Assembly (NCBI GenBank): GCA_963575745.1
Contig: CAUYUJ010000319.1
Coordinates: 1 to 64,000 of the forward strand
Direction: 5' to 3'
DNA length: 64,000 nt
Source: Prorocentrum cordatum
Taxonomy: Eukaryota
The position numbers and the translations under genes are program-made. Numbering within the stretch: the stretch's first letter is position 1; each line of letters begins with the position of its first letter. The notes under the pieces are model-generated. The model worked only from the letters and a program-made list of their open reading frames with translations, was not told the DNA's origin and did no database searches. Below are positions 1,421 to 63,814 of this stretch, piece by piece.

Positions 1421-1694
1421 TTTCCTGGTGTGAGATTATTAAGATAGGAATATATAACCACCCCCTCTCTCACGTCCCCCCTCGGCGCGAAGCCGAGAGA
1501 GGAGAGAGGGCCTCAGGCCGCCCCGGAGGCGGTGGAGGGGGGGGGCGAGGCGGAGAGAAGCAGGACCGGCCATCGGGGGCAGGACCGGCCATCGGGGGCG
1601 AGGCGCAGAGAAGCAAAACAAAAACAACATGGAGGACTACCGTTTTGCCGTTTTTTGTTGAACCCTCCGTCGAGGGGGCTCCAGGGACTCGAAG

Positions 1695-2431
1695 GATGAT
1701 AATGATGCTGGCGATGTTGATGCTGCTGCTGATGATGATGATGATGATGCTGATGATGCTGCTGCTGCTGGTGATTTTCTCGATTATGTTCGATGGTGGT
1801 GATCATGAGGATGCTGATGCTGATGATAGCGATTATGACGACGATGATGACGATGGTGACGGCTGTGGTGATGATGATGAATATCATGATGCTGACTCTG
1901 ATGATGCGGATGCTGATGATGGTGATGATGCTTATGACGATGATGCTGACGACTCGACGATCATGACGACGATGACGGCGACGCTGACGATGCTGCTGCT
2001 GCGGCTGCTGCTGCTGCTGATGATGATGATGATCATCATCATCAGCATCATCATCTCGATGACGTGGATGGTGGCGATGACGATGATGATGGCGATTCTG
2101 ACGACGACGATTATGACGATGGTGATCGCGGTGGCGGTGGTGGTGGTGATGGTGGCGGTGGTGTTGATGATGATGATGATGCTTATTCTGCTGATTGTTA
2201 TTTGATATTGCCATTACTATTGTTATTCGTCATATCGCTGTTATTACCCTTTTTCTTCGTCTCATCATTATCATTATTACTATTACTGTCATTATTTTTT
2301 ATCCTTCTTCGTACTGCTATGATGCTGACCACGACGGCGGCGATTACGTCGATGATGAATGTGCTGTTGATGATGATGGTCGTAGTGGCGATGCTGACGA
2401 TGATGACGACGGCGACGACGACGACGACGAC

Positions 2432-12256: not shown

Positions 12257-12454
12257 TAGGGGAACGAAAAGTGGCATAAACATAAAAACTCGGAGGTTCG
12301 CGCGAGTTTCTCGGATCGGTCCTGGACCCCCCTCCCTGGCGCGCGGAGCGCGCCAGGGCGGCGCCGGAGGCGCCGCCGGGGGGCCCCAGCGCCGATCCGA
12401 GAAATTCGCGCGGACCTCCGAGTTGTTATATTTATGCCACTTTTTGTTCCCCTG
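12257..12454. mobile_element. TIR MITE with about 60-bp inverted repeats and TSD GGGGA/GTGGA
   Basis: taggggaacgaaaagtggcataaacataaaaactcggagg... pairs with ...cctccgagttgttatatttatgccactttttgttcccctg; relatives at about 4600, 19850-20013, 29633-29725, 30430-30600 and 57022-57171. Confidence 0.85.
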
Positions 12455-15546: not shown

Positions 15547-15567
15547 CCGTAGCCATTTTGGCTCAAG
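15547..15567 (+). other. Genomic copy of the dinoflagellate spliced leader (21 nt)
   Basis: Exact CCGTAGCCATTTTGGCTCAAG. Confidence 0.95.
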
Positions 15568-18558: not shown

Positions 18559-21542
18559 CTCCATCCTCCTCCACCCTCCTCCATCTTCCTCCATCCTCCT
18601 CCATCCTCCTCCATCCTCCATCCTCCTCCTCCTCCCTGCTGCTCCTGCTCCTCCTCCTCCTCATCCTCATCCCTCCTCCATCCTCCTCCTCCTCCATCCT
18701 CCTCCTCCTCCATCCTCCTCCATCCTCTTTTTCCTCCTCCTCCATCCTCCTCCTCCTCCTCCTTTTCCATCCTCCTCCTCCGCCTTCTGCTCTTCCTGCT
18801 CCCTCCCCCCTCCTCCCCATCCTCCTACTCCCCCTGGAGCGTCCTCCTCTTCCTTCACCCCCTTTCTCGTCCTGCTCCATCCTCTCCTGCTCAACTCCTC
18901 CCCCTCCTCCCCTCCTGCGTGCCGTTTTCCCCGCTTCCCAAGTCCTTCTCGCCGCCGGGGAGCAGGGGGGGGGGCATTTCTTGGGGGCCTAGTGGGTCCG
19001 TGGGCCCCCTAGATCTTTTGGCGCCCGTGGCCTTTTGCACTTGCTCGAGGCCTGCCAGGGACGCTGCCTATCCGCCGTCTGTTTGTGAATGAGCGGAGGG
19101 TTAGGTGTGCTGCGCCGATGTATCGATCAAGCCCGCCGCAGACCGTATACCGGGGTATGAACTTGGTCAATCTCGGAGAAATGGTGAGCGCCAGCGTGGT
19201 AGGGGTCCAACTGCTCAGCCGCTGCGGTCCTTGCATTTCGCGCGTTCCAGTGTCCATAGTCTGAGACACTCTAGCGGAAAGACGACGACTGAACAGGCGA
19301 GGGAGCAGCCATCAGGCACCGAGTAGCAGCGTGCTTTTTTCAATAGCGGCAGGCCGGGGCTAGTGTCACCACCCACCAAACCACCCCAACTCAACCCGAA
19401 GGCCTCAATTTGCCATCCAGTTCCACTGTGGGGGGGGCGGGGGACAGTGAAAGAGCACATGGGACCGTACCCCCCCCAACCCGAAATTCGGGTCGAATTC
19501 GAGTCTTCGGGTTGGGCAGGGGTGGTCTGGTAGGTCGTCGTAGGGACCTCCCCGAGTCTTGGCCTCTGGCTTGGTGGGGAGTCCAGCTCGGCCTGTAGGC
19601 CACCGAGTTCGAAGCCACTCCAGGGCCCGCGGGCGGACCAGGCTGGGTCCACCATTTAGCCTTACGTCAGGCCGGGCTTGTCCCTCCGCAGGGGGAATGT
19701 TCAAAAATAGTCAAACAATCGTCTGGGGAAGGTTTTTGGACAATTTTTGATTATTTCGGGTATCTTCAGCAGACAATTTTTATTTTTCGTCCAAGGTTCG
19801 CTTGTAGGATGACATGTCCGACCTACATGTAGCCTGCACCACCTGATTTCGAAGAAGGAAAAAACGCCATGAACATTAACTTTTGGCGCTCCGCGCGGAT
19901 TTCTTGGATCCGCGCTGCGCCCCCCCCGTGGCGCGCGGAGCGCGCCAGGGGCGGATCTGAGAAATCTGCGCGGACCTCTGAGCTTTATGTTTATGCCATG
20001 TTTCGCTCCCCGAATTTAGCCTGCATCACCTGGGCGCTGGGAGCGGCCATGCCGACCACTCGGGGCTCAAGGATCGGGGCGCTCACCGGGCCCCGATCCC
20101 TGGCGCCGCTCCCCGAGAGCCTTCCCCCCCGGTGCTAGGCCCCTCGGCGGCACTGCTGCTCCACAGCAGTCACGCCCACGTCAGGGCTCGAGCTACACTT
20201 AAGTTGGGCCTGTCCCTCTACAGGAGGAATGTTGAAAAGAGTGAAAACATATCTGGAGACGATTTTTCTATTATTTTTGATCATTGTAGAGTATGTTTCG
20301 ACAATGTCTCATTTTTCGTCCAAAATCCCCCTCTAGGAGAGCGTGCCCGACCTACGTGAAGCTACGCGGTGTTTTGGCGATTTCGAGGGCCGCTCTCGTT
20401 TTGATTTCCTTTCGCAGCGGAGGCGGAGCGGAGGCGGAGCGAAGGAGGAGGAGTAGGAGGAGGAGGAGGGGGAGGAAGAGGAGGAGGAGGAGGAGGAGGA
20501 GGAGGAGGAGGAGGAGGAGGAGGAGGAGAGGAGAGGAGGGAGGGGAGAGGGAGGAGGAGAGGAGGAGGGAGGAGGAGGAGGAGAGAGGAGGAGGAGGAGG
20601 AGGAGGAGCGGCAGCCCTGGCCCATGCCCTCGCCGTGCCCAGCCGGGGCAGTCCCGGGCCCCGTCCAGGCTAGGCGCACAGGAGGCCCTAGCCAGCCTCG
20701 GGGGCGGGAGGGCGCGCGCACCACGCCGCGGGCCAGGGCGGCCCTGGCCGCGGCGTGGCGTTGCCGTGGAGCTCCGGCGGTGCCGCTCGGGCACGGTGCT
20801 CGCCCGTCGCGGTGCCGTGATCGTCCCTCGCGCCGCAGGCTCGCCGCGGGCTCCTGGGGGGTGCCTCGTGATCGTCCCCCGGGGTGTGGCTCTGCCGCTT
20901 CTGCTGCTCTCTTGGGGGTCCCTGATCGTCCCCCCTTGTGGCGCCACTCGGCGCTCCCTGTGGCACGTCTTCTCCGCTTCACCGTGTGGATTGTTCGACC
21001 GGGGTGTTCTCGACAGCGGCATGGGAAGTTTGGCTCCGCATCCGGAAGAACATGTGTGCGTGCCTCCTGCTGGGGCTTCGTCGTGTCCCTGCTCGCCAGG
21101 GCACTCGACACGTGCGCGAAGCTGTGCCGTGAATACCACGCCCCCTCGTGGCTCCCTTGCTCCAAAACGCACACCGCTCGAGGCGGTGGAGAGCTTGACA
21201 TATCCATACCACAACGTGCGTGCCTCCCGCCGCACTGGTCGACCAGAAAACGAACGATGCCACCCCACCTGCGGCCCTCCATGCTGCGCTGCGGCCCATC
21301 GGGGGGTCAGTAATCAGCGCATGCCACGCCAACGCCCACGCCAGATTTTTTCTGGTAGGCGCTCAGCCCCGTGGGGCCGCGGGTGGGGTCCCCCGTGCCC
21401 GAGTCGTGCAGTCTGGCCGAGGCGTAAGATCGAGGTCGGTTCGGGGAGGGTGCCTCATGCTTTCCTGACGTTCTTTGCGTCTTGGCTGGCGGAGGGCCTC
21501 GCGTCCTAGAGGGATGTTCTTCGGTCCTATGTCCGACTGTAC

Positions 21543-31047: not shown

Positions 31048-31083
31048 TCCGTAGCCATTTTGGCTCAAGCAAATTTGGCTCAG
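31048..31083 (+). other. Full 22-nt spliced leader followed by a decayed, truncated second SL relic
   Basis: TCCGTAGCCATTTTGGCTCAAG (31048-31069) then CAAATTTGGCTCAG (31070-31083). Confidence 0.92.
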
Positions 31084-31147: not shown

Positions 31148-34100
31148 ATGGCCAAACCAATCGTCATGGAGTTGGCAGCCGTCCTTTGCGCGGCCTTGGT
31201 CAGTTGCGTGATAGGCGGAAACGGCGACTGCGACTGCATGACGGAGTGGAACTACGATGGCGATGCCGACGGGGTTATGGAGTTGTACGAGGGCTGCAGC
31301 GCCACGGCCGACTGGAACCAGAGCTGGTGCTACGTGCAGGGCGGTTCCGAGTGCAACCAGGCCCTGAACTCCACCGTGGCCGGCGAGACGCGGAAGTGGC
31401 GCGAGTGCGGGTCCTGCAACTGCATGGCGGAGTGGAACTACGATGGCGATGCCGACGGGGTTGTGGAGTCGTACGAGGGCTGCAGCGCCACGGCGGACTG
31501 GGACCAGAGATGGTGCTACGTGCAGGGCGGTTCCAACTGCAACCAGGCCCTGAACTCCACCGTGGTCGGCGAGACGCGGAAGTGGCGCGAGTGCGGCTCC
31601 TGCAACTGCATGACGGAGTGGAACTACGATGGCGATGCCGACGGGGTTATGGAGTCGTACGAGGGCTGCAGCGCCACGGCGGACTGGGACCAGAGCTGGT
31701 GCTACGTGCAGGGCGGTTCCAATGCAACCAGGCCCTGGACTCCACCGTGGCTGGCGAGACGCGCAAGTGGCGCGAGTGCGGCTCCTGCAACTGCATGACG
31801 GAGTGGAACTACGATGGCGATGCCGACGGGGTTATGGAGTCGTACGAGGGCTGCAGCGCCACGGCCGACTGGGACCAGAGTTGGTGCTACGTGCAGGGCG
31901 GCTCCAACTGCAACCAGGCCCTGAACTCCACCGTGGCCGGCGAGACGCGGAAGTGGCGCGAGTGCGGCTCCTGCAACTGCATGACGGAGTGGAACTACGA
32001 TGGCGATGCCGACGGGGTTATGGAGTCGTACGAGGGCTGCAGCGCCACGGCGGACTGGGACCAGAGCTGGTGCTACGTGCAGGGCGGTCCAACTGCAACC
32101 AGGCCCTGAACTCCACCGTGGCCGGCGAGACGCGCAAGTGGCGCGAGTGCGGCTCCTGCAACTGCATGACGGAGTGGAATTACGATGGCGATGCCGACGG
32201 GGTTATGGAGTCGTACGAGGGCTGCAGCGCCACGGCGGACTGGGACCAGAGTTGGTGCTACGTGCAGGGCGGCTCCAACTGCAACCAGGCCCTGAACTCC
32301 ACCGTGGCCGGCGAGACGCGGAAGTTGAAGCACCATGACGCGCGGCGGAGACTCGAGAAGTGTGCGAGTGCGGCCTGCAATTGCATGACGGAGTGGAACT
32401 ACGATGGCGATGCCGACGGGGTTATGGAGTCGTACGAGGGCTGCAGCGCCGGCGGACTGGGACCAGAGCTGGTGCTACGTGCAGGGCGGTTCCAACTGCA
32501 ACCAGGCCCTGAACTCCACCGTGGCCGGCGAGACGCGCAAGTGGCGCGAGTGCGGCTCCTGCAACTGCATGACGGAGTGGAACTACGATGGCGACGCCGA
32601 CGGGGTTATGGAGTCGTACGAGGGCTGCAGCGCCACGGCGGACTGGGACCAGAGCTGGTGCTACGTGCAGGGCGGTTCCACTGCAACCAGGCCCTGCCAC
32701 CGTGGCCGGCGAGACGCGTAAGTGGCGCGAGTGCGGCTCCTGCAACTGCATGACGGAGTGGAACTACGATGGCGATGCCGACGGGGTTATGGAGTCCTAC
32801 GAGGGCTGCAGCGCCACGGCGGACTGGGACCAGAGCTGGTGCTACGTGCAGGCGGTTCCAACTGCAACCAGGCCCTGGACTCCACCGTGGCTGGCGAGAC
32901 GCGAAAGTGGCGCGAGTGCGGCTCCTGCAACTGCATGACGGAGTGGAACTACGATGGCGATGCCGACGGGGTTATGGAGTCGTACGAGGGCTGCAGCGCC
33001 ACGGCCGACTGGGACCAGAGCTGGTGCTACGTGCAGGGCGGTTCCAATTGCAACCAGGCCTGGACTCCACCGTGGCCGGCGAGACGCGCAAGTGGCGCGA
33101 GTGCGGCTCCTGCAACTGCATGACGGAGTGGAACTACGATGGCGATGCCGACGGGGTTATGGAGTCGTACGAGGGCTGCAGCGCCACGGCCGACTGGGAC
33201 CAGAGCTGGTGCTACGTGCAGGGCGGCTCCAATTGCAACCAGGCCCTGAACTCCACCGTGGCCGGCGAGACGCGGAAGTGGCGCGAGTGCGGCTCCTGCA
33301 ATTGCATGACGGAGTGGAACTACGATGGCGATGCCGACGGGGTTATGGAGTCGTACGAGGGCTGCAGCGCCACGGCCGACTGGGACCAGAGCTGGTGCTA
33401 CGTGCAGGGCGGCTCCAACTGCAACCAGGCAGTGGACTCCACCGTGGCCGGCGAGACGCGCAAGTGGCGCGAGTGCGGGTCCTGCAACTGCATGACGGAG
33501 TGGAACTACGATGGCGACGCCGACGGGGTTATGGAGTCGTACGAGGGCTGCAGCGCCACGGCCGACTGGGACCAGAGCTGGTGCTACGTGCAGGGCGGTT
33601 CCAACTGCAACCAGGCCCTGAACTCCACCGTGGCCGGCGAGACGCGCAAGTGGCGCGAGTGCGGCTCCTGCAACTGCATGACGGAGTGGAACTACGATGG
33701 CGATGCCGACGGGGTTATGGAGTCGTACGAGGGCTGCAGCGCCACGGCGGATTGGGACCAGAGCTGGTGCTACGTGCAGGGCGGCTCCAACTGCAACCAG
33801 GCCCTGAACTCCACCGTGGCCGGCGAGACGCGCAAGTGGCGCGAGTGCGGCTCCTGCAATTGCATGACGGAGTGGAACTACGATGGTGATGCCGACGGGG
33901 TTATGGAGTCGTACGAGGGCTGCAGCGCCACGGCGGACTGGAATCAGAGTTGGTGCTACGTACAGGGCGGTTCCAATTGCAACCAGGCCCTGGACTCCAC
34001 CGTTTCCGGCGAGACGCGCAAGTGGCTTGAGTGCACCCCGTCGACCCCCTCACCGACGCCGGCACCAGACATCGAGAGTGCCTCAGGCGTCGGAGAGCCG

Positions 34101-39834: not shown

Positions 39835-40311
39835 CATGATGGTGGTGATGTTGACGACGATGACGACGATGATGCTGGTGATGACGACGACGGTGATGAT
39901 GATGTTGATGACGCTGCTGCTGATGCTGCTGCTGATGCTGCTGCTGATGATGATGCTGCTGATGCTTCTGATGCTGATAATGATGATGCTGACGCTGCTG
40001 ATGATCATGCTGCCGTTGATGATGATGCTGTAGATGATGATGGTACTGATGATGATGCTGCTGATGCTGATGCTGCTGATCATGGTGATGATAATGCTGA
40101 TGACGATGATGATGCTGCTGAACATACTGCTGACGATGATGATGATGATGCTGATGCTGATGCTGACGTTGATGATTATGATGATGCCGACGACAGTGAT
40201 GGTTAAGATGATGATTATGATGCTGATGCTGCTGCTGCTGATGCTGATGCTTGTGATCATGGTGATGATGATGCTGATGACGATGATGATGCTGCTGAAC
40301 ATACTGCTGAC

Positions 40312-40363
<52 letters not shown>

Positions 40364-40997
40364 CTGATGCTGATGCTGATGCTGACGTTGATGATTATGA
40401 TGATGCTGACGACAGTGATGGTGAAGATGATGATTATGATGCTGATGCTGCTGCTGCTGATGATGGTAAGGATGAGGATGCTGCTACTGATGCTGTTGAT
40501 GATGGTAATGATGATGCTGATGACGATGGTGATGCTGCTGATGATGCTGCTGACGATGATGATGATGATGCTGATGCTGATGCTGATGGTGATGATTAGG
40601 ATGATGCTGACGACAATGATGATGAATCTGATGACGATGATGATGACTATGATGATGCTGGTGATGGTGCTAATTATGATGATGATGATGGTGCTGCTGA
40701 TGATGATGGTGATGATGATGCTGACTGCTGCTGATGTTGATAATACTGCTGCTGCTGATGATGCTGCTGATGGTAATGATGCTGCTGCTGATGATGCTGA
40801 TGCTTAGTTATCATGGTGGTGATGGTGATGATGATGCTGATGCTGATGATGGTGCTGATGAGGCTGCTGCTGTTGTTGATGCCGATGATGCTTTTGATGA
40901 TGGTAATGCTGCTGATTCTGATGCTGATGCTGATGCCGATGCGGACGATGATGATGCGGACGATGATGAGAATGATGATTATGATGATGATGCTGAC

Positions 40998-41041
<44 letters not shown>

Positions 41042-41860
41042 GACTGATGATGCTGATGATGCTGCTGATGCTGATGATGATGACGATGATGATGATGATG
41101 ATGATGCTGATGCTGCTGCTGCTGATGATGATGCTGCTGCTGCTGATGATGATAGTGATGATGCTGATGCTGCTGATGATCATGCTGCCGTTGATGATGA
41201 TGCTGCTGATGATGATGGTACTGATGCTGCTGCTGCTGATGCTGATGCTGCTGATCATGGTGATGATGATGCTGATGACGATGATGATGCTGCTGAACAT
41301 ACTGCTGACGATGATGGTGCTGATGCTGACGTTGATGATTATGCTGATGCTGACGACAGTGATGGTGAATATGATGATTATGATGCTGATGCTGCTGCTG
41401 CTGATGTTCGTAAGGATGAGGATGCTGCTACTGATGCTGTTGATGATGGCAATGATGATGCTGATGACGATGGTGATGTTGCTGATGATGCTGCTGACGA
41501 TGATGATGATGCTGATGCTGATGCTGATGGTGATGATTAGGATGATGCTGACGACAATGATGATGAATCTGATGACGATGATGATGACTATGATTATGAT
41601 GGTGATGATGCTAATATGATGATGATGATGGTGCGTGCTGCTGATGATGATGGTGATGATGATGCTGACTGCTGCTGATGATGATAATACTGCTGCTGCT
41701 GATGATGCTGCTGATGATGCTGTTGATGATGATGCTGATGGTAATGATGCTGCTGCTGATGATGCTGATGCTGATGCTGATGATGGTGGTGATGGTGATG
41801 ATGATGCTGATGCTGATGATGGTGCTGATGAGGCTGCTGCTGTTGTTGTTGCTGATGATG

Positions 41861-41924
<64 letters not shown>

Positions 41925-42112
41925 ATGATGCTGCTGATTCTGATGCTGATGCTGATGCCGATGCGGGCGATGATGATGATGATGATGATGCTGATGATGA
42001 TGATGTTGATGATTCTGATGATGATTCTGACGATGATGATGATGCTGATGCTGCTGCTGCTGATGATGCTGATGATGATGATGCTGCTGTTGATGATGAT
42101 GATGATGATGAC

Positions 42113-42156
<44 letters not shown>

Positions 42157-43680: not shown

Positions 43681-44737
43681 AGTAGCAGTGAACATCGAAC
43701 GAGGAGGTCCTGCCATTGGAACATAGAAGAAGGATGACCAGGCTCTACTGGGCACCTGTGGTAGGATCGCGGGAAAATGCGGAGGAGGAGGAGACAAGGA
43801 GGAGGAGGAGCATAAGAAGAAGGCTGGACAGGGCAGGTCACGCGCCGGCCCCAACCGCGGGCGCCCGCGGCGGGCGCGGGGCGTTGACTAGCGGGAACAG
43901 CCGATGCTGCTGCTGCTGCTGAGGAGACAGAAAACAGCGAGATAGGGAGGCAGACGGAGGAGGGAGGAGAGAGGAGGGAGGAGGGAGGAGGGAGGAGGAG
44001 GAGGCGGAGGAGGAGGAGGAGGAGGAGGAGGAGGAGGAGGAGGAGGAGGAGGAGGAGGGAGGAGGAGGGGGAGGAGGAGGAGGAGGAGGAGGAGGAGAGG
44101 AGAGAGGGAGGGAGAGGAAGGGGAGATGGGGAGGACCAGGGAGTAGGGAGGAGGGAGGTGAGGGAGAGGCGAATGCCGAGGCGGAAAGTGGAGGCGGAGG
44201 CGGAGGCGGAGGCGGTGGCGGAGGAGAGGAGGAGGGTGGCGGAGGAGGAGGCGGTGGCGGAGGAGGAAGAGGAGGTGGAGGAGGAGGAGGCGGGAGGAGG
44301 AGGAGGAGGCGGAGGAGGAGGGGATCAGGAGGAGGAGGAGGCGGAGGAGGAGGAGGGGAGGAGGAGGAGGAGGAGGAGGAGGAGGAGGAGGAGGAGAGGA
44401 GGAGAGGAGCGAGGGAGCAGGGAGCAGGGAGGAGGGAGGAGGGAGGAGGGAGGGGGAGGAGGGAGAGAGAGGGGAGAGGGAGGAGAGGGAGGACGAAGAG
44501 GGAGGAGGGAGGAGGGAGGCGGAAGAGGAAGGAGAAAGGGATGAGGAGGAAGGAGGAAGGAGGCGAACAAGGAGGAGTGAGGAGGGAGGTGGGAGGAGCG
44601 AGAGGGAGGGAGGGAGGGAGGAGGGAGGAGGGAGGGAGGGAGAGGAAGGAGGGGGGAGGAGGAAGGAGGAGGGAGGAGGAGGAGGAGGAGGAGGAGGAGG
44701 CGGAGAGGAGGAGGAGGAGGAGGAGGAGGAGGAGGAG

Positions 44738-44769
<32 letters not shown>

Positions 44770-44880
44770 GGAGGAGCAGGAGGAGGAGGAAGAGGAGGAG
44801 TAGGAGGAAGTGGAGGAGGACGACGACGACAGACGACGACGGCGATGACAGCGGCGACGACGACGACGACCACGGGCGGC

Positions 44881-44909: not shown

Positions 44910-45951
44910 ATGCTGACCCGTGGCGGCCGCGAGGCCTCGGCGCGCGCTCGCGGCATGCGGCCCCCGTGCCTGCCTGCCGCCAGCGGCTCGGGCCGTACCG
45001 GCATCCCCCGGGGCAACGGGGCCGGTCCGTTCTGGCCGCGTGCATCCCTCGCCATAGGGGAAGCGGGTCCCGACCCAGACCCCGTCGAGTCATGAAACAG
45101 TCACGACGAGTGTTTTTTCGCCATTTCGGGGCCCTCGGGGCCCTCCACGGGCCCCGGGACCGCCGGAAAACGGCTCAGGACGAAGAGCTGGTCCTGGGGG
45201 AAGGCCCTGGGGTCCAGGACCCGTTTCCCTCAGGACCCGTTTCCCCCATGCTAAGTCCCGAATTGAGGCTTGGAGTGGTCCTATGCTGGCAGAAGGTCTG
45301 CTGACCTCGAGGCCCCAAAGATCTCACTGGACGGTGCGTCGCCGGACGGCTTCTCAGGGGAGGGGCAGGTGCCGAAGCCGAGACGCGCCTCTCGCCGCCA
45401 CAGTCGGGTTCGCCTCGAAGTCCTGGTCAGAGCGCGCCCCTGGAGAGGTCTCGGGAGCAGCGGCATCGGTACCGTTCTGTGTCGTGCGTCTGGGAGCGCT
45501 GGAGGCCCTGGGCGCCACGGACATCCTCGGGCACTTCTGGCCCACTGGACGGTGTGGTCACATCACCGTTTGTGGACCCCAGCAAAAGTAACCAGCCTCG
45601 AACTTATCCCTATCCCTAAGATGGGCCAGCAAAAAGCGAGGACAATCTTAGGGATAAGCCCTCAGAAACAGAGGGAATATTTAAGATCGGCATCGAGGTG
45701 AGGTGATGTCAAACATAGGGATAGGGATATGTTTCAAACTGGTAAAAAAAAAAGGGATCACCAGATCGCGCCGCACCGTGAATGCATCGACGATGGGGCG
45801 TGATCTGGACGTTCCGACTTGCCCCATCCCGACGTCGCAGATGCCACCGCGGATGCATCGGCCCCATATGTATTTTCAAGAGCCGCCGATCCGCAGAAGG
45901 TGGATGGACAAATGCCATTATGTTCGCTTCCCATACCTACCCCCGGCATGA
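44910..45951 (+). CDS. Putative 179-aa hypothetical protein split by three TIR elements (segments 44910-45054, 45254-45353, 45491-45588, 45755-45951)
   Basis: Follows an SL relic; removing each element plus one TSD gives 540 nt with no internal stop; no recognisable domain. Confidence 0.4.
45589..45745. mobile_element. TIR MITE of the same family as the AKR insert 56201-56358, in opposite orientation
   Basis: taaccagcctcgaacttatccctatccctaag...atagggatagggatatgtttcaaactggtaa; flanked by AAAAG on both sides (4 extra A on the right). Confidence 0.85.
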
Positions 45952-46019
45952 CATCCAGGAATGATGCCCAGGCGATCAGGTGGGAACAGGGACCTGTATA
46001 CTTATGTGTGTATGCATCA

Positions 46020-47125
46020 ATGTATGTAATTGTGTATATATGTATGTATGTATGCATGCATGCATGCATGCATGCATGCCTGTATGCATGCATGTATGTG
46101 TGTGTTTATGTCTGTCTGTCTCTGTGTATGCATGTAAGTCTGTATGCATGTGTGTATGTATGTATGTATGTATGCATGCATGCATGCATGCATGCATGCA
46201 TGCATGTATGCATGTATGTATGTATGTATGTATGTATGTATGTATGTATGTATGTTTGTATGTATGTATGTATGTATGTATATATGTATGTATGTATGTA
46301 TGTATATACGCATCTATGTATGCACATGCGTACCTATGCATGTACGAGTGCATATATACACGTATGTATGCATGCATGTATGTATGTATGCATGTATGTA
46401 TGCATGTAGATGTGCAGGTGTGTATGCGTGTATGCATGCATGTATGTATACATGTATGCATGCATGTATGTATGTATGCATGTAGGTCTGCAGGCATGCA
46501 CGTATGCCTGTATGTATGCATGTATGCATGCATGCATGCATGTATGCATGTATGCATGTAGGCCTGTATGCCTGTATGCATGCATGCATGCTTGTATGTA
46601 TGTATGTGTGGATTGTATGCACGCGTGTATGTGTGTATGTCTGTCTGTATGTATGTACGTATGTGATGTATGCATGCATGCATGCATGCATGCATGCATG
46701 CATGCACGTATGTATGTATGTATGTATGTATGTATGTATGCATGTATGTATGTATGTATGTATGTATGTATGTATGGGTGCATGTGTGTGTATGTATGCA
46801 TGTATGGATGTAGGTCTGTCTGCATGCAAATGTGCACGTATGCAGATAAGCAGGCATCCATGTATGTAGATATGCCGGTACGTAGGTATATATGCATGCA
46901 TGACTTCATGCATGTATATATATATATGTATGCATATATGCATGGATGAATGCATGCATGTCTGCATGTATGCATACGTGCATGTAACGTATGTATATGT
47001 ATATGTATGTATGCATGCATGCATGCATGCATGCGTGTATGTATGTATGCATGTATGCATGTATGTATGTATGTATGTATGTATGTATGTAGGTATGTAT
47101 GTATATTTATGTGTATATGTATATC
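46020..47125. repeat. (TATG/CATG)n tetranucleotide tract
   Basis: Directly visible; smaller tract at about 24890-24990. Confidence 0.95.
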
Positions 47126-47319
47126 TACATATCGTCATAAACGCATGCCTTCGAAAGGCCACCGATGCTGACTTTGGAGACCTTTGGGGGCCTCTCGGAA
47201 GCCTCCTGCAGTCTTGGAGCCCCCTCGGAGGTCCCGTGGGGCCCAGTCTGGGAGCGCGTGGGGACCTCTCTGCGCGGGCCCCGTTTGGAGCCATCCTGCA
47301 GACCTTCCATCCAAAAGGG

Positions 47320-47340
47320 TTTAGGGTTTAGGGTTTAGGG
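47320..47340 (+). repeat. Interstitial telomere-type repeat (TTTAGGG)3
   Basis: Exact; further partial units at about 47875-47910 and 49866-49877. Confidence 0.8.
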
Positions 47341-47463
47341 TCTACAAGCTCTGCCGCAGCTGATCCCCTCCTGCCTAGGAGCCCACCTGCGGTGGCTGCC
47401 AGTCCCACCCGCAAACCACCCTACCATAAAGATCATCTCTCCCCTCGTTGTAAGTACAACGAA

Positions 47464-52469: not shown

Positions 52470-53660
<1,191 letters not shown>

Positions 53661-55331: not shown

Positions 55332-55514
55332 TCGAGTCGGGGATCGACCACATAGTTGAGTTACCCCCCGCATGGATTTTCTCGCCGACGCTACGGAGAG
55401 AACTACTCAGACTTTGCCGCAGGTTGGAGAACATTCTCCATGTCTTCGTTGTAGGTTGGATGGGGACGATCGAACTTGGGGGTACATCGATGCTGCAGTC
55501 GATCCCCCCCTCGC
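55332..55514. mobile_element. TIR MITE in the 5' region of the AKR gene, TSD GCTGT/GCTTT
   Basis: tcgagtcggggatcgac...gtcgatccccccctcgc. Confidence 0.7.
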
Positions 55515-57385
55515 GCTTTGCTGCCCTTGGGGTGCTCTGCCGGGGCAGCCTGCGCAGGACCCGCCCGGCTCCCTCCGAAGGCCGCCCTCGGGGGGCGCGC
55601 CAGGCGGCCGCGGTCTCCAGCGCCGCTGCGGGGCCCCTGCGGAGGCTCCGGCTGGGGGGCTCGGGCCTGGAGGTCACCGACTGCTGCCTCGGGACCATGA
55701 CGTGGGGGATCCAGACCAGCGGCGAGGAGTCGGGGAAACGTAAGACTCGAGTGCGCCGGAACCCAGGCTTGCCGACGCGCAGCGGGAGCTCGCGTCAACT
55801 TTCAGAACGGGTCGCGTCATCGTCCTGATGGCCCAGTCGGGCCAACCCAAGTCTCCCTCATCATTCGCCCGAGTCTTACGCCTCCCCGAGAGGAGGCCCG
55901 CGCGCAGATGGACTACGCGCTGAAGGAGCGGGGCGTCAACTTCGTGGACACCGCCGAGATGTACCCCGCACCCCCCGGGGCCCCCGGCTGGCGCGCGGGT
56001 GGCACCGAGGAGATCATCGGCTCGTGGTTGCAGAGGAACCCCGGGTGGCGCACCAGGCTCGTCCTGGCGACGAAGGTCTGCGGCCACAGCCCCCGGAGCG
56101 CGACGGCCCGGGCGCGCGGGCAGGCGTGCGCGCGCCTGGACGCGGCGTCCATTAGGAGCGCCCTGGAGGCGAGCCTGCGGCGCCTGCAGACCGACTACGT
56201 TTACCAGCCTGGAACATAGCCCTATCCCTATGCTGGGCACCTCCTCATCACGATGCCAATCTTAGGGATTCCCTTATTTTCTGAGGGCGAATCCCTAAGA
56301 TTGTCATCGCCTTTTGGCGTGTCAATCTTAGGGATAGGGATACGTTCGAGGCTGGTAATACGTGGACCTCTTCCAGCTGCACTGGCCGGACAGGTACACG
56401 CCCCTCTGGGGCGCCGCGGCCTACGACCCGTCCAAGGAGCGGCCTGGCGCGGTGCCCATCGCGGAGACCCTCCGTGCCCTGGCGGCCCTGCAGAGGGAGG
56501 GGAGGATCCGGCACTTCGGCCTCTGCAACGAGAGCGCGTTCGGGGTGTGCGAGTGGGCCGCCGCCTGCAGGGCGGAGGGCTGCCCCCCGCCAGCCTCCAT
56601 CCAGAACGAGTTCTCCATGCTGAGCCGCGGCTTCGAGGAGTCCCTGGCGGAGTGCTGCGCGCCGGCGAACCACAACCTCTCCCTGCTGCCCTGGAGCCCG
56701 CTGGGCGGCGGGGTGCTGTCGGGCAAGTACCTGCAGGACGCCCCCGCCGCCGCTCGCTTCCTGGCCCTCCCCCAGCTGCAGGGGGGGCGGTTCCTCACGC
56801 CGGCGGCCAGGGAGGCCACCGCGGAGTACGTGGCCGTGGCGCACGCCGCTGGCATCCCCCCCGCGCGTCTGGCGCTGCAGTGGTGCCAGAGCCGCTGGTT
56901 CGTGGGCTCGACGATCGTGGGGGCCACGAGCCTGGGGCAGCTGAGGGAGAACATCGACTCGTTCGACGGCCACGCCACGCCAGCGCTGCCCGAGGACGTG
57001 CTGCGAGCCGTGGACCGAATCTCGAGGAGGAAACAGCAGCATGAGCATAGACTCTCGGAGGCCCGCGCGCGTTTCTCTTGGCTCTGCGCCGGGGCCCCCC
57101 TGGCGGCGCCGATCCACGAAACCCGCGCGGACCTCCGAACGTTTGTGTTGATGCCGTGCTTTCTGCTCCCAGCATCCATGCCCGGCGGCGGAATCCGTGC
57201 AGCTTCTTCGCGGCAACGTCGCTGCCAGGGCTGCGGGGGGTGCCCGGGAGGAGCGGGCACATGCCGGGGGAGCAGGGCAGTGGCCTCCCCCCCGCGCGAC
57301 GGGCCGCGGCGGGACACTGCGGGGGCGCCCGCGCAGAGGAAGGGCCCGAGGAGGCGGGTCAGGACGAGTGTGAGGGGCAGGAGCG
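55515..57385 (+). CDS. Aldo-keto reductase, Tas-like (coding segments about 55515-55726, 55893-56198, 56362-57021, 57177-57385); start codon and true stop not resolved
   Basis: Joined segments read LGGSGLEVTDCCLGTMTWG-IQTSGEEARAQMDYA-GVNFVDTAEMYP-VLATKV-SLRRLQTDYVDLFQLHWPDRY-GRIRHFGLCNE-SIQNEFSML-LLPWSPLGGGVLSGKY-STIVGATSLGQLRENI-VDRIHARRRNP. The catalytic D, Y, K and H are present and the segments have no internal stops. Confidence 0.9.
55730..55889. mobile_element. Introner-like TIR element with 6-bp TSD GAGGAG; removable as GA...AG intron 55727-55892
   Basis: tcggggaaacgtaagactcgag / cccgagtcttacgcctccccga; GAGGAG at 55724-55729 and 55890-55895; AG|GA donor and AG|G acceptor. Confidence 0.88.
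56201..56358. mobile_element. TIR element in AKR with perfect TSD TACGT; best frame-restoring cut is GT...AC (56199-56361)
   Basis: ttaccagcctggaacatagccctatccctatg / cttagggatagggatacgttcgaggctggtaa; removal restores TDYVDLFQLHW. Confidence 0.88.
57022..57171. mobile_element. TIR element (12257 family) in AKR, TSD GAATC/GCATC
   Basis: Decayed inverted repeats of about 55 bp; removal restores VDRIHARRRNP. Confidence 0.8.
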
Positions 57386-57565
57386 TCGGGGGCGGCCAAG
57401 GAGGGGGGTGGGCATCGTGGGCATCGTGGCGGGGGCCGTGGTATCTCCCCAGACATCATGGCGCCTCTTCCTACTCCAATGCGTTCCCTGGCCCCCCCTG
57501 GTCCGCGCACGTGCCTGTGATTTGCACACCCCACTCCTGGACGCCCTCCTCTTAGACGCCCCCGA
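57386..57565. mobile_element. TIR element at the 3' end of the AKR locus, TSD GAGCG/GAGTA
   Basis: tcgggggcggccaaggagg / cctcctcttagacgcccccga. Confidence 0.7.
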
Positions 57566-61346: not shown

Positions 61347-62154
61347 GAGAGGAAGGAATGGCGGAGGCGGAGGAGGAGGAGGAGGAGGAGAAGTTGGAGG
61401 GAGGAGGAGGAGGAGGAGGAGGGGGAGGAGGAGGAGGCGGAGGATGAGGAGAGGGGGATGAGGAGGAGGAGGAGGAGGAGGAGGAGGAGGAGTGAGGAGG
61501 AGGATGATGATGCTGAGATGATGATGAGGAGGAGGAGGAGGGGAAGAGGAGGAGGAGGAGGGGAGGAGGAGGAGGAGAGAGGACGAGGAGGATGAGGAGG
61601 ATGAGGAGGACGAGGAGGAGGGGAGGAGGAGGAGGAGGAGGCGGAGGCGGAGGCGGAGGGGGAGGCGGAGGCGAATGAGGCGGAGGAGGAGGAGGATGAG
61701 GAGGAGGGGAGGGGGAGGAGGAGGAGCGAGGAGGAGGAGGAGGAGGAGGAGGAGGAGGGGGAGGATGAGGAGAAGGGAAGGAGGAAGGAGGAGGCGAGGA
61801 GGAGGAGGAGGAGGAGGAGGAGGAGGAGTGAGGAGGAGGAGGAGTAGAGAGAGGAGGAGGAGGAGAGGAGGAGGAGGAGGAGGAGAGAGGAGGAGGAGGA
61901 GGAGGAGGGGGGGAAGGCGGAGGCGGAGGCGGAGGCGGAGGCGGAGGAGGCGGAGGAGGAGGAGGAGGAGGAGGAAGGGGATGGAGGAGGACGAGGAGAA
62001 GGGGGAGGCGCAGGAAGGCGAGGCGGACGAGGTGGCACAGAGGAAGGAGGGGCAAGAACGGCGGAGGGGGAGAATGCAGGCTGGAGGAAGCGTAGCATGA
62101 GAAGGCGGAGCAGCACGAGGAATGGTTGGCGGGAGGAGACGGAGGAAGCGGGTA

Positions 62155-63060
<906 letters not shown>

Positions 63061-63814
63061 GGAGGAGGAGGAGGAGGAGGAGGAGGAGGAGGAGGAGGAG
63101 GAGGAAAGAAGGGGGAGGGGAGGATGAGAAGGAGTTGGAGAAGGCGGGGGGCTGATTTGGGCGGGGGGGACCGGGTGAGGCGGGGGGGAGGGCCAGGGGC
63201 AGGAGAAAGGGCCGGGGAGAGAGATTGGTCCGACAGCCCCCCCCCTCTGGACGCCCGAAATTGGTACGGAAAGAATGGTTACGATGCCCAACAGCAGTTC
63301 CCGTTCATTGTGAACAGGATTCGCTGTGCACGCCGCCGCGGCCTGTGTCCATTCGAGACAGAAGGCCGCCTGCCCAACGGCGGCCGCTGTTGGTTTGGGA
63401 CAACATGTGTTGTTGGGCATTGTGCCATTTTTTCCGTACCCATTTCGGGCGTCCAAACCCCCCGCTTCGACCCCGGATCGCCTATCCGATCGCGAGCCCG
63501 ACCGGGGTGGGTCGGCTGCCCGACGGGGCGCGCGCGCGGCCGAGGCGGCATCCTGAAGGCTTCCGCCGCCCAGCGGCCTCCCTGCTGCTGCTGTTGCTGT
63601 TGCTGTTGCGGTTGCGGCTGTGGTTGTGGCTGTGGTTGTGGTGACTGTTGCTGTGGTTGTGGATGCGGTCGTGGTTGTGGTTTGGCGTTGTTGTAGTGGT
63701 TGTGGATGTTGTTCTTGTTCTTGTGGATGTGGTCGTGGTTGTGAATGTGGTTGTGGTTGTGGTTGTGTTTGTGGTTGTGGTTGTGGTTGTTGTTGTTGTT
63801 GTTGTTGTTGTTGG

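What the first reader, a model, noticed from the sequence alone, without database searches (positions are those of the whole stretch)
55332..57565. Intact aldo-keto reductase interrupted by TIR elements, two of which lack canonical splice ends: candidate hairpin-guided non-canonical introns
Seen: five different 150-183-bp TIR elements sit within 2.3 kb. The three inside the recognisable AKR domain each restore conserved motifs exactly when the element plus one TSD is removed (GEE|ARAQ, TDY|VDLFQLHW, VDRI|HARRRNP). The first fits GA...AG. For the second the best cut is GT...AC, and the nearest upstream AG would bring in an in-frame TAA. For the third the exact cuts are GA...CA or AA...AG; a GA...AG cut is possible only by adding 2-3 residues. 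The TIRs have decayed while the coding segments keep the catalytic D/Y/K/H with no stops, and the third TSD mismatch is synonymous (CGA/CGC Arg). Known: Introner transposons and GC/GA donors occur in dinoflagellates, and inverted-repeat-bounded non-canonical introns occur in Amoebophrya and euglenids. Inference: the gene is alive and the elements are removed from RNA with the TIR stem plus TSD defining the junction.
Basis: partly seen in the sequence, partly recalled or inferred. Interest (0 to 1): 0.85.

Follow-up and report, generated by a model that had tools for sequence, protein, structure and literature searches.

The report
Transposon hairpin introns lacking standard ends
A conserved enzyme gene of a dinoflagellate alga is interrupted by small jumping-gene remnants that are missing, cut out to the letter, from its messenger RNA, and two of them cannot have the usual intron end signals, a behaviour so far described mainly in a parasitic relative.

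Summary
A Tas-like aldo-keto reductase gene (+ strand, about 55490-57335) is split by three MITE-like elements with inverted ends and flanking direct repeats: E2 55730-55889, E3 56201-56358 and E4 57022-57171. Two further claimed elements are weaker (E1) or no better than chance (E5).

Contigs of four public runs from four studies, one a poly(A) RNA library, join the exons exactly as "element plus one repeat copy removed":
- Junction 1: 4 of 4 runs.
- Junction 2: 2 of 4 exact, 1 of 4 with 4 extra bases, 1 of 4 without a bridging contig.
- Junction 3: 4 of 4 runs.

Junction 1 can be a normal dinoflagellate GA..AG intron.

The joined protein aligns without gaps to homologues and keeps D/Y/K/H. 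All 5 exonic strain differences are synonymous. Two spliced-leader relics mark a dinoflagellate, and composition and gene density fit a large free-living genome rather than Amoebophrya.

Best reading (0.7): introner elements removed from RNA as in Amoebophrya A25/A120, by an unidentified machinery. An element-free paralogue, reverse-transcriptase template switching and DNA excision are not excluded.

The parts
55490..55723 (+). AKR exon 1, counted from the first in-frame ATG. The ATG lies inside the right arm of E1. The true 5' end is unresolved.
   Evidence: Frame and translation. RNA contigs start at 55477 (X1), 55511 (X5) and 55557 (X10). The exon aligns to the N-termini of homologues.
55724..55895 (+). 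Intron 1 window: E2 (55730-55889, 160 nt) plus the two GAGGAG repeat copies. 166 nt are removed and the cut can slide over 7 positions, one of which is GA..AG.
   Evidence: Inverted repeat (I6). Joint 55723>55890, skip 166, both 6, in 4 of 4 runs. Permitted ends. Fold z -2.7.
55890..56195 (+). AKR exon 2, carrying the Asp, Tyr and Lys of the catalytic tetrad.
   Evidence: PF00248, E 2.2e-17. Alignment. Contig pieces.
56196..56363 (+). Intron 2 window: E3 (56201-56358, 158 nt, termini TTACCAG..CTGGTAA) plus the two TACGT repeat copies. 163 nt are removed. Permitted ends are TA..AA, AC..AT, CG..TA, GT..AC, TT..CG and TT..GT.
   Evidence: Inverted repeat (I1). Joint 56195>56359, skip 163, both 5, in X5 and X10. 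X1 has 56199>56359, skip 159. X17 has no bridging contig. Fold z -9.8. Strict scan hit.
56359..57018 (+). AKR exon 3, carrying the catalytic His in QLHWPD.
   Evidence: PF00248, E 1.4e-36. Alignment. Contig pieces with 0-2 mismatches.
57019..57176 (+). Intron 3 window: E4 (57022-57171, 150 nt) with repeats GAATC (57017-57021) and GCATC (57172-57176). 155 nt are removed. Permitted ends are AT..GC, TC..CA, CT..AT and TC..TC.
   Evidence: Joint 57018>57174, skip 155, both 3, in 4 of 4 runs. Permitted ends. Fold z -5.6. Family copies.
57174..57335 (+). AKR exon 4: the conserved C-terminal tail, then an extension that is still open where the contigs stop. The stop codon and 3' end are unresolved.
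   Evidence: Contigs end at 57335, 57334 and 57322. Homologues P0001 and P0002 end at the VPGR that lies near 57240-57251.
55333..55513 (+). E1, a plausible inverted-repeat element at the 5' end. It is not shown to be removed. Its right arm is inside the mRNA contig of X1 and holds the first in-frame ATG.
   Evidence: I3, 36 nt, 72%. Fold z -3.8. X1 contig starts at 55477. Only a 4-of-5 flanking repeat.
57386..57565 (+). E5, a doubtful element. Its termini resemble those of E2, but its hairpin is no better than chance and it has no RNA cover.
   Evidence: I7. Fold z -0.5, with 51 of 200 shuffles as good. Depth is 0 in bin 57380-57469 in all 4 runs. Absence of cover is not counted as evidence.
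45591..45745 (-). Second copy of the E3 family (82% identical over 156 nt).
   Evidence: blastn. Alignment A1.
19853..20010 (+). Relative of E4 (68% over 163 nt, same kind of terminal arms).
12258..12453 (.). Relative of E4, a near-palindrome with 75-nt arms (88% complementary).
   Evidence: I6..
15547..15567 (+). Exact relic of the dinoflagellate spliced leader (taxon marker).
   Evidence: 2 exact matches against 0 expected. Context.
31049..31069 (+). Exact relic of the dinoflagellate spliced leader, followed by a partial second relic. This marks a retroposed gene.

Best explanation
The locus is a functional Tas-type aldo-keto reductase gene of a GC-rich dinoflagellate, probably free-living with a large genome. 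At least three non-autonomous transposons with inverted ends (MITE-like) have inserted into its coding sequence, each duplicating 5-6 bases of target.

The elements behave as introners. In the pre-mRNA the inverted ends fold into a long hairpin that brings the two exon ends side by side, and the element plus one copy of the duplicated target is removed. This restores the pre-insertion reading frame.

Intron 1 can use the ordinary dinoflagellate rule (AG|G repeated at both borders, GA..AG). Introns 2 and 3 cannot begin and end with G at any permitted cut. They must therefore be handled either by a spliceosome with relaxed end recognition, helped by the hairpin, or by a separate structure-reading cut-and-join activity. 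I lean towards the first.

Shown here:
- The anatomy of the elements.
- Their exact absence from RNA-derived contigs.
- The impossibility of standard ends at introns 2 and 3.
- Signs that the protein is under selection.

Inferred:
- That removal happens in vivo at the RNA level.
- That the hairpin matters.
- Which machinery acts.
For: Anatomy:
- Inverted repeats and direct repeats are as described.
- Hairpins fold better than all 200 shuffles for E2, E3 and E4.
- E3 and E4 are repeated families: extra copies lie in the window, one of 80 metagenome loci holds a full E3-like copy, and short high-depth E3 contigs occur in the RNA runs.

RNA:
- Contigs of X1, X5, X10 and X17 (4 studies; X17 is on record as poly(A) RNA-Seq) join 55723>55890 and 57018>57174 in 4 of 4 runs.
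- They join 56195>56359 in 2 of 4 runs.
- The X1 and X5 contigs match the window's exons with 0 mismatches over 1379 and 1340 nt. X1 reaches into E1's right arm, which ties the transcript to a locus of this type.
- Depth inside E2 is near 0 in 3 of 4 runs.

Ends:
- Enumeration of all cuts compatible with the joints gives no cut with G first and G last for introns 2 and 3.
- This holds even if the repeat mismatch at 57018/57173 were strain-specific.

Selection:
- The joined protein is colinear with 9 homologues and keeps the catalytic tetrad.
- Exon GC3 is 94%.
- All 5 exonic differences seen in X10 and X17 are synonymous.

Taxon: two exact spliced-leader relics are present against 0 expected.

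Precedent: Amoebophrya A25/A120 have more than 60% non-GT-AG introns. Of these, 11-30% carry 8-20-nt inverted repeats and 3-5-nt direct repeats across the borders (PMC7789003, passages and section 11).
Against: - All RNA evidence is from assembled contigs of cDNA libraries. Three of the four runs are of unrecorded kind. No DNA run of the organism was found (best share of words 0.59 among 24 listed runs), so an element-free gene copy cannot be ruled out.
- The configuration, a stable hairpin flanked by short direct repeats, is the one that provokes reverse-transcriptase template switching. That process yields 'element plus one repeat' deletions by itself.
- No splicing machine is known that could measure off a target-site duplication.
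- X1 carries a junction with 4 extra bases, a frameshift, as its only assembled form at intron 2.
- E3-family copies are kept inside other RNA contigs (loose ends at 56200/56201 and 56358; L005). The hairpin alone evidently does not guarantee removal.
- The selection test rests on only 5 differences.
- The 5' and 3' ends of the mRNA, and the stop codon, are unresolved.
Confidence: 0.7

Rival explanations
1. The transcripts come from another copy of the gene (a dispersed paralogue or retrocopy) that never received, or has lost, E2-E4. The copy in the window would be a transposon-riddled dead gene. An empty insertion site has exactly the sequence of 'element plus one repeat removed'.
For: - Contigs cannot tell a spliced RNA from an RNA of an uninterrupted copy.
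- Dinoflagellates carry many duplicated and retroposed genes, and two spliced-leader relics lie in this very window.
- No DNA run was available.
Against: - The X1 and X5 contigs are identical to the window's exons over 1340-1379 nt, and X1 includes 37 nt of E1. Such a copy would have to be extremely recent.
- The elements nevertheless look older: one of five repeat bases has changed, the arms are 70-90% complementary, and E3 is 82-84% identical to other copies.
- Only one AKR copy lies in the 64 kb, so there is no tandem array.
- A retrocopy would itself presuppose that the parent's elements were spliced out.
- The form with 4 extra bases is not an empty site.
Confidence: 0.12
2. The mature mRNA keeps E3 and E4. 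The joined forms are made in the test tube, when reverse transcriptase stalls at the hairpin and switches template between the 5-nt direct repeats.
For: - The geometry is ideal for it. The hairpins are very stable (-98 and -93 kcal/mol) and direct repeats abut the stem.
- This process gives removal of exactly one repeat copy without any further assumption.
- The alternative junction in X1 looks like sloppy switching.
Against: - Retained elements (163 and 155 nt) would shift the frame. Yet exons 3 and 4 stay open and homologue-like, GC3 is 94%, and 5 of 5 strain differences are synonymous.
- The joined form is the only AKR contig assembled in 4 runs of 4 studies. Switching is usually a minority product, and libraries that fragment RNA before reverse transcription would separate the two repeats in most fragments (established knowledge, not tested here).
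- In Amoebophrya the same architecture affects the majority of introns, so an in vivo route must exist there (PMC7789003).
Confidence: 0.08
3. The elements are excised from DNA in part of the cell population. This could be transposase cut-out, or replication slippage between the direct repeats helped by the palindrome. The RNA would then be read from the repaired copies.
For: - The X1 junction retains both repeat copies minus one base, which resembles a transposon excision footprint.
- Slippage between repeats flanking inverted repeats is a known route to precise excision in bacteria (recalled, not tested).
Against: - It would need precise excision at three sites in most transcribing cells.
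- The assembled genome carries all three elements.
- No such programmed DNA elimination is known in dinoflagellates (recalled).
Confidence: 0.03

Closest known systems
Introner elements / non-canonical introns of Amoebophrya sp. A25 and A120 (Farhat et al. 2021, PMC7789003)
   Same: - Short introns with inverted repeats at both ends and 3-5-nt direct repeats across the borders.
- A predicted hairpin that apposes the exons.
- No fixed terminal dinucleotides, repeated families, and support from RNA-seq.
- A dinoflagellate host.
   Different: - Here the arms are longer (20-40 nt or more) and the repeats are 5-6 nt and abut the arms.
- The terminal motifs (TCGGGG.., TTACCAG..) differ from the reported TTA+RR (A25) and TAT (A120) starts.
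- The host genome is repeat-rich and gene-poor, with exon GC of 75%. It is not a compact parasite genome.
- Loss of U1 could not be examined.
Ordinary introns and Introners of core dinoflagellates: identically repeated intron boundary with AG|G (Mendez et al. 2015, PMC5032977); introner elements counted in Prorocentrum cordatum, Polarella and Amphidinium (PMC10666404); Roy et al. 2023 (not held, known only through citations)
   Same: - A direct repeat of 2-9 bases is present once in the mRNA.
- The introns are transposon-derived, with inverted repeats.
- Intron 1 here fits the rule fully (GA..AG with AG|G on both sides).
   Different: - Introns 2 and 3 lack AG|G and cannot be G..G at any permitted cut.
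- The published pipelines admitted only GT/GC/GA donors with AG acceptors, so introns of this kind would not have been called.
Nonconventional introns of euglenids (PMC11282704 review; Euglena splicing code, PMC12501133)
   Same: - Variable ends.
- Terminal inverted repeats that pair.
- Target-duplication-like repeats at the borders.
- Suspected MITE origin and unknown machinery.
   Different: [quoted passage not shown]
- In E3 the CAG/CTG pair sits 13 nt in total from the ends instead of 8-9. E4 has no such motif near its ends.
- The host is a dinoflagellate.
Introners of Micromonas pusilla and Aureococcus anophagefferens (Huff et al. 2016, as summarised in PMC11282704)
   Same: A DNA transposon with inverted ends and a target duplication, removed together with one repeat copy.
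   Different: Those elements bring one standard splice site and recruit the other from the duplicated target, so they remain GT-AG. Here two of three have no standard site.
Non-canonical introns of the tunicate Fritillaria borealis (Henriet et al. 2019, as summarised in PMC11282704)
   Same: MITE-derived introns with non-standard ends, removed by an adapted U2 spliceosome. This is the precedent for the 'relaxed spliceosome' reading.
   Different: The host is an animal, and no role of long hairpins or direct repeats is reported in the passages seen.
Tas-type NADP(H)-dependent aldo-keto reductases (Pfam PF00248)
   Same: The domain is present, the protein is colinear over its whole length, and the catalytic tetrad is kept. 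Identity to algal and bacterial members is 40-61%.
   Different: The protein has an N-terminal extension of about 50 residues and a C-terminal extension that remains open. Neither is explained.

Membership tests
Amoebophrya-type introner elements (non-canonical introns with inverted and direct repeats) | The intron is absent from RNA at an exactly defined junction. | tested here: met
   Joints in contigs of 4 runs, one of them poly(A) RNA. This is contig-level evidence only, with no DNA control.
Amoebophrya-type introner elements (non-canonical introns with inverted and direct repeats) | The ends are not GT-AG and show no fixed dinucleotides. | tested here: met
   All permitted cuts are listed. 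Introns 2 and 3 never have G first together with G last.
Amoebophrya-type introner elements (non-canonical introns with inverted and direct repeats) | Inverted repeats at the two intron ends (8-20 nt) form a hairpin. | tested here: met
   Arms of 20-40 nt. Fold z values of -2.7 to -9.8.
Amoebophrya-type introner elements (non-canonical introns with inverted and direct repeats) | Direct repeats of 3-5 nt overlap the exon/intron borders. | tested here: met
   Repeats of 6, 5 and 5 nt (one mismatch in the last) abut the arms.
Amoebophrya-type introner elements (non-canonical introns with inverted and direct repeats) | The introns form repeated families across the genome, genome-wide in scale. | tested here: inconclusive
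   E3 and E4 have 1 and 2 further copies in the window. E3 pieces reach depth 50-200 in RNA contigs. No genome is held.
Amoebophrya-type introner elements (non-canonical introns with inverted and direct repeats) | The host spliceosome lacks a detectable U1 snRNA. | not testable with these tools
   No genome is held. Rfam finds nothing in the window.
Standard dinoflagellate spliceosomal intron (GT/GC/GA..AG with AG|G repeated boundary) | G at the first and AG at the last positions, with AG|G in the repeated boundary. | tested here: not met
   The feature is met by intron 1 only (GA..AG at 55727-55892). Introns 2 and 3 fail at every permitted cut. Rule taken from PMC5032977, sections 11 and 15.
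Euglenid nonconventional intron | [quoted passage not shown] | tested here: not met
   In E3 the CAG at 56205-56207 and the CTG at 56352-56354 leave spacers summing to 13 nt. E4 has no motif near its ends (read; code from PMC12501133).
MITE (non-autonomous DNA transposon with terminal inverted repeats) | Terminal inverted repeats, a target-site duplication, small size, no coding capacity and several copies. | tested here: met
   This is met for E3 and E4. E2 is single in the window, and E1 and E5 are doubtful. The superfamily and transposase were not identified.
Aldo-keto reductase, Tas-like (PF00248) | A domain match above Pfam's cut-off and the catalytic Asp/Tyr/Lys/His. | tested here: met
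   63.5 and 126.5 bits against a cut-off of 24. Motifs kept in the alignment.

The most novel reading that the evidence does not exclude
Free-living dinoflagellates possess a spliceosome-independent RNA cut-and-join activity. It reads the hairpin of an inserted transposon and removes it together with one copy of the target duplication, whatever the border sequence. This would act as RNA-level repair of transposon damage.

One rule is permitted at all three junctions: the 5' cut falls at the first base of the inverted repeat, and the 3' cut falls a fixed few bases beyond the last.

Such introns would be systematically missing from published gene models, which allow only GT/GC/GA..AG. Only transposon families whose duplication length matches the enzyme's offset could then colonise coding sequence.
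Probability: 0.2. Interest if true: 0.85.

Novelty: new member of a known kind. Interest (0 to 1): 0.6.

Why it matters
If the reading is right, hairpin-bounded introns with arbitrary ends are not a peculiarity of the parasitic Amoebophrya. They would also work in a large, GC-rich genome of the free-living type.

Three consequences follow:
- Gene models of such dinoflagellates are built with GT/GC/GA..AG only, so they would miss or mangle genes like this one.
- The unknown machinery could be studied in culturable algae.
- The mismatched target duplication at intron 3 gives a rare natural marker that narrows the cut to four positions, none of them standard.

The finding also sharpens an open question for all transposon-derived non-standard introns: how can a cell remove exactly one copy of a target-site duplication?

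Tried and rejected
Searches that gave nothing:
- No whole genome is held for the window, so no genome-wide tally of junctions or of AKR copies was possible.
- Rfam found nothing in the window at gathering scores.
- Pfam was run on 140 long, non-simple open frames, filtered from 320. Only the two AKR frames hit above cut-off. One frame (1516-2229, minus strand) had two hits below the curated cut-offs. No second conserved gene was therefore available to test whether the phenomenon is general.
- GC3 periodicity mostly picked up trinucleotide arrays. The other E3 and E4 copies do not sit in clear coding stretches.

Protein searches:
- The two searches (20 hits of 386-2000 aa; 379 hits, best 120 listed) gave no hit above 61% identity. 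The organism's own protein is not in the collection and no species could be read off.
- Cluster look-up of 8 proteins added only one named relative, an apicomplexan-like protist at 48% identity.

Metagenome scans:
- A 30-letter degenerate E3 arm gave 0 hits.
- A 17-letter core gave 80 loci, the cap. Of these, 79 are chance matches and one (L005) holds a full E3-like copy just upstream of an ATG. Whether that contig is DNA or RNA is unknown.

Earlier findings of the scan: 5 look-ups found nothing on this genome or on this kind of intron.

Rules and scans that did not fit:
- The Euglena splicing code does not fit (see the membership test).
- The relaxed inverted-repeat scan was not informative (109 hits against 55-82 simulated). 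A first version of the scan had a faulty low-complexity filter and returned nothing.

Parts of the stretch without contig cover carry no weight. These are 57380-57469, most of E1, and the region after 57335. The 5' end, E1's fate, E5's fate and the stop codon stay open.

Extra depth at 56154-56199 and 56470-56499 comes from contigs with unlike flanks (loose ends). I read these as chance matches of a coiled-coil-like transcript, not as AKR isoforms.

One 'other letter' row, 56281 C>T inside E3 from short multi-copy contigs, was left out of the synonymous/non-synonymous count.

Roy et al. 2023 (Curr Biol) is not held, and bioRxiv supplements are closed. Either may contain non-standard introner junctions in Polarella or Symbiodinium that I could not see.
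Full report
**What is there**

The + strand between about 55490 and 57335 carries four coding pieces of one aldo-keto reductase.
- The two longer pieces hit Pfam PF00248 at 63.5 and 126.5 bits, against a cut-off of 24.
- The three reading frames change at three places.
- At each of these places sits a 150-160-nt element with inverted ends: E2 55730-55889, E3 56201-56358 and E4 57022-57171.
- Each element is flanked directly by a short direct repeat: GAGGAG (6 of 6), TACGT (5 of 5) and GAATC/GCATC (4 of 5).

I joined the exons in a script at the positions given by the RNA contigs. The resulting protein aligns with 9 homologues, chosen from the 164 proteins fetched, without a gap at any junction. 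It keeps the Asp, Tyr, Lys and His motifs.

- E1 (55333-55513) folds better than all 200 shuffles (z -3.8), but it has only a 4-of-5 repeat.
- E5 (57386-57565) folds no better than chance (z -0.5, 51 of 200 shuffles as good).

**Are the elements real?**

- E3 with its flanks folds into an almost uninterrupted stem (-97.9 kcal/mol, z -9.8). E4 gives z -5.6 and E2 gives z -2.7, with 0 of 200 shuffles as good in each case.
- E3 has a second copy at 45591-45745 (82%). E4 has relatives at 19853-20010 and 12258-12453.
- One of 80 metagenome loci that share a 17-letter core holds a full E3-like copy (84% over 154 nt) just upstream of an ATG.
- A strict scan of the window finds two elements, one of them E3. 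The criteria were an exact 5-nt repeat and 14-nt arms with at most 2 mismatches. Ten simulated windows gave one hit in all. A relaxed scan is uninformative.
- E2, E5 and the E4 family share TCGGGG-like termini. I take this only as a weak hint of a common transposase.

**RNA evidence**

Of the 24 public runs listed, 20 hold part of the stretch. None holds more than 0.59 of its words, which is about the exon share. Two are on record as poly(A) RNA.

I laid contigs of four runs from four studies.
- All four join 55723 to 55890, skipping 166 nt. The cut can slide over 6 letters.
- All four join 57018 to 57174, skipping 155 nt. The cut can slide over 3 letters.
- At the middle element, X5 and X10 join 56195 to 56359, skipping 163 nt. 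X17 has no bridging contig.
- X1 instead joins 56199 to 56359, skipping 159 nt. This leaves 4 extra bases and shifts the frame.
- The X1 and X5 contigs match the window's exons without a single mismatch over 1379 and 1340 nt. X1 starts at 55477, inside E1's right arm, where the first in-frame ATG (55490) lies.
- Depth inside E2 is near zero in 3 of 4 runs.

**The ends**

I listed every cut compatible with the joints.

| Intron | Permitted ends |
|---|---|
| 1 | Seven cuts, including GA..AG with AG\|G on both sides |
| 2 | TA..AA, AC..AT, CG..TA, GT..AC, TT..CG, TT..GT |
| 3 | AT..GC, TC..CA, CT..AT, TC..TC |

- Intron 1 fits the ordinary dinoflagellate pattern (PMC5032977, sections 11 and 15).
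- At intron 3 the mRNA carries the upstream repeat's A at 57018 in 4 of 4 runs, so the cut lies to the right of the mismatch.
Even if the mismatch were strain-specific, neither would be a standard pair.
- Because the first and last intron bases are fixed by position, nested or stepwise splicing cannot rescue a G..G intron at junctions 2 and 3.

**Is the gene alive?**

- Exon GC is 75% and GC3 is 94%.
- Runs X10 and X17 differ from the window at five exonic positions, and all five changes are synonymous. A sixth listed difference lies inside E3 in short multi-copy contigs and was left out.
- All four exons keep homologue-like sequence. This includes the C-terminal tail shared with P0001 and P0002.
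- Open points remain. The mRNA contigs stop at 57322-57335 with the frame still open, whereas the closest homologues end about 85-95 nt earlier. The 5' end is also unresolved.

**Organism**

- Two exact copies of the dinoflagellate spliced leader lie at 15547 and 31049, against 0 expected in 100 shuffles. The motif was typed from recall. The second copy is followed by a partial second relic, as in retroposed dinoflagellate genes.
- The window has 57.7% GC.
- Only one Pfam-recognisable gene was found among 140 long frames.
- The window holds many kilobase-long simple-repeat arrays.

This fits a large free-living genome. Published values for Prorocentrum cordatum are 59.7% for the genome and 65.9% for coding sequence (PMC10666404, passages). 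It does not fit the compact Amoebophrya genomes, which have 232-273 genes per Mb (PMC7789003, passages). The species is not established.

**Comparison with what is known**

- Amoebophrya A25 and A120 have more than 60% non-GT-AG introns. Of these, 11-30% carry 8-20-nt inverted repeats and 3-5-nt direct repeats across the borders. They form predicted hairpins and no U1 snRNA was found (PMC7789003, passages and section 11).
- In P. cordatum, introner elements defined by the same repeat pattern were counted in 2.4% of introns. The mapping and gene-model tools admitted only GT, GC or GA donors (PMC10666404, passages and supplement passages).
- Euglenid nonconventional introns share the hairpin and the border repeats, but their published code is not met here (PMC12501133 and PMC11282704, passages).
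- Four full-text searches found no report of hairpin-bounded introns with arbitrary ends in a free-living dinoflagellate. A fifth search, aimed at haptophytes, also found none.
- Roy et al. 2023 is not held.

**Mechanism**

I take the elements to be introners removed from the pre-mRNA, with the hairpin apposing the ends. Confidence is 0.7.

What performs the cut is unknown.
- A spliceosome with relaxed end recognition is the more conservative choice. Amoebophrya and Fritillaria are precedents.
- One rule is permitted at all three junctions: the 5' cut at the first base of the inverted repeat and the 3' cut after the downstream repeat copy.
- No known machine could measure off a target duplication. 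The simplest process that yields 'element plus one repeat' unaided is polymerase template switching.

That is why reverse-transcriptase switching (0.08) remains a rival for the RNA evidence, although the signs of selection argue against it. An element-free paralogue or retrocopy (0.12) and DNA excision (0.03) also remain. Two things are unexplained: the junction with 4 extra bases in X1, and the retained E3-family copies in other RNA contigs.

**Verdict**

- The kind of thing is already known from Amoebophrya. Its presence in what looks like a free-living, large-genome dinoflagellate would be a new member of that kind, with practical consequences for gene annotation.
- Interest: 0.6.

Noticed in passing
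window 15547-15567 and 31049-31069 (+): Two exact relics of the dinoflagellate spliced leader lie here. The second is followed by a partial second relic, which is the signature of retroposed genes.
   Followed up: partly
window 31231-33930 (+): Downstream of the second relic, a GC3-periodic region encodes tandem Cys/Trp-rich repeats of about 60 residues. Their reading frame switches several times. There is no Pfam hit and no inverted-repeat element at the switches.
   Followed up: partly
window 40017-42156, 43956-44820, 46003-47122, 52473-53560, 62154-63059: Kilobase-long tri- and tetranucleotide arrays ((TGA)n, (GGA)n, (TATG)n, (TAG)n, (ATG)n) fill roughly a third of the last 24 kb.
   Followed up: no
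window 56199/56359 junction in run X1: One run's only assembled AKR contig keeps 4 extra bases at intron 2, a frameshift, although it is otherwise identical to the window. This could be sloppy junction choice or a footprint-like DNA difference.
   Followed up: partly
window 57240-57335: The mRNA contigs read on past the point where the closest homologues end (..VPGR). The frame is still open where the contigs stop, so the stop codon and 3' end are unknown. Two of the five synonymous strain differences lie in this extension.
   Followed up: partly
L005 387-539 (minus orientation): A metagenome contig holds an E3-like element (84%) retained about 6 bases upstream of an ATG that opens a GC3-rich frame. 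Whether the contig is DNA or RNA is unknown.
   Followed up: partly
window 63245-63458: This is the only other element in the window that passes the strict inverted-repeat plus 5-nt-repeat scan. Its flanks are CCCCC, so the repeat may be a chance match.
   Followed up: no
window 47316-47341: A short run (3.7 copies) of the plant-type telomere heptamer lies inside the window.
   Followed up: no
window 55490 (ATG) within E1's right arm 55478-55513: The first in-frame start codon of the AKR lies inside a putative transposon arm. It opens an Arg-rich extension of about 50 residues that the shortest homologues lack and that may be a targeting peptide.
   Followed up: no
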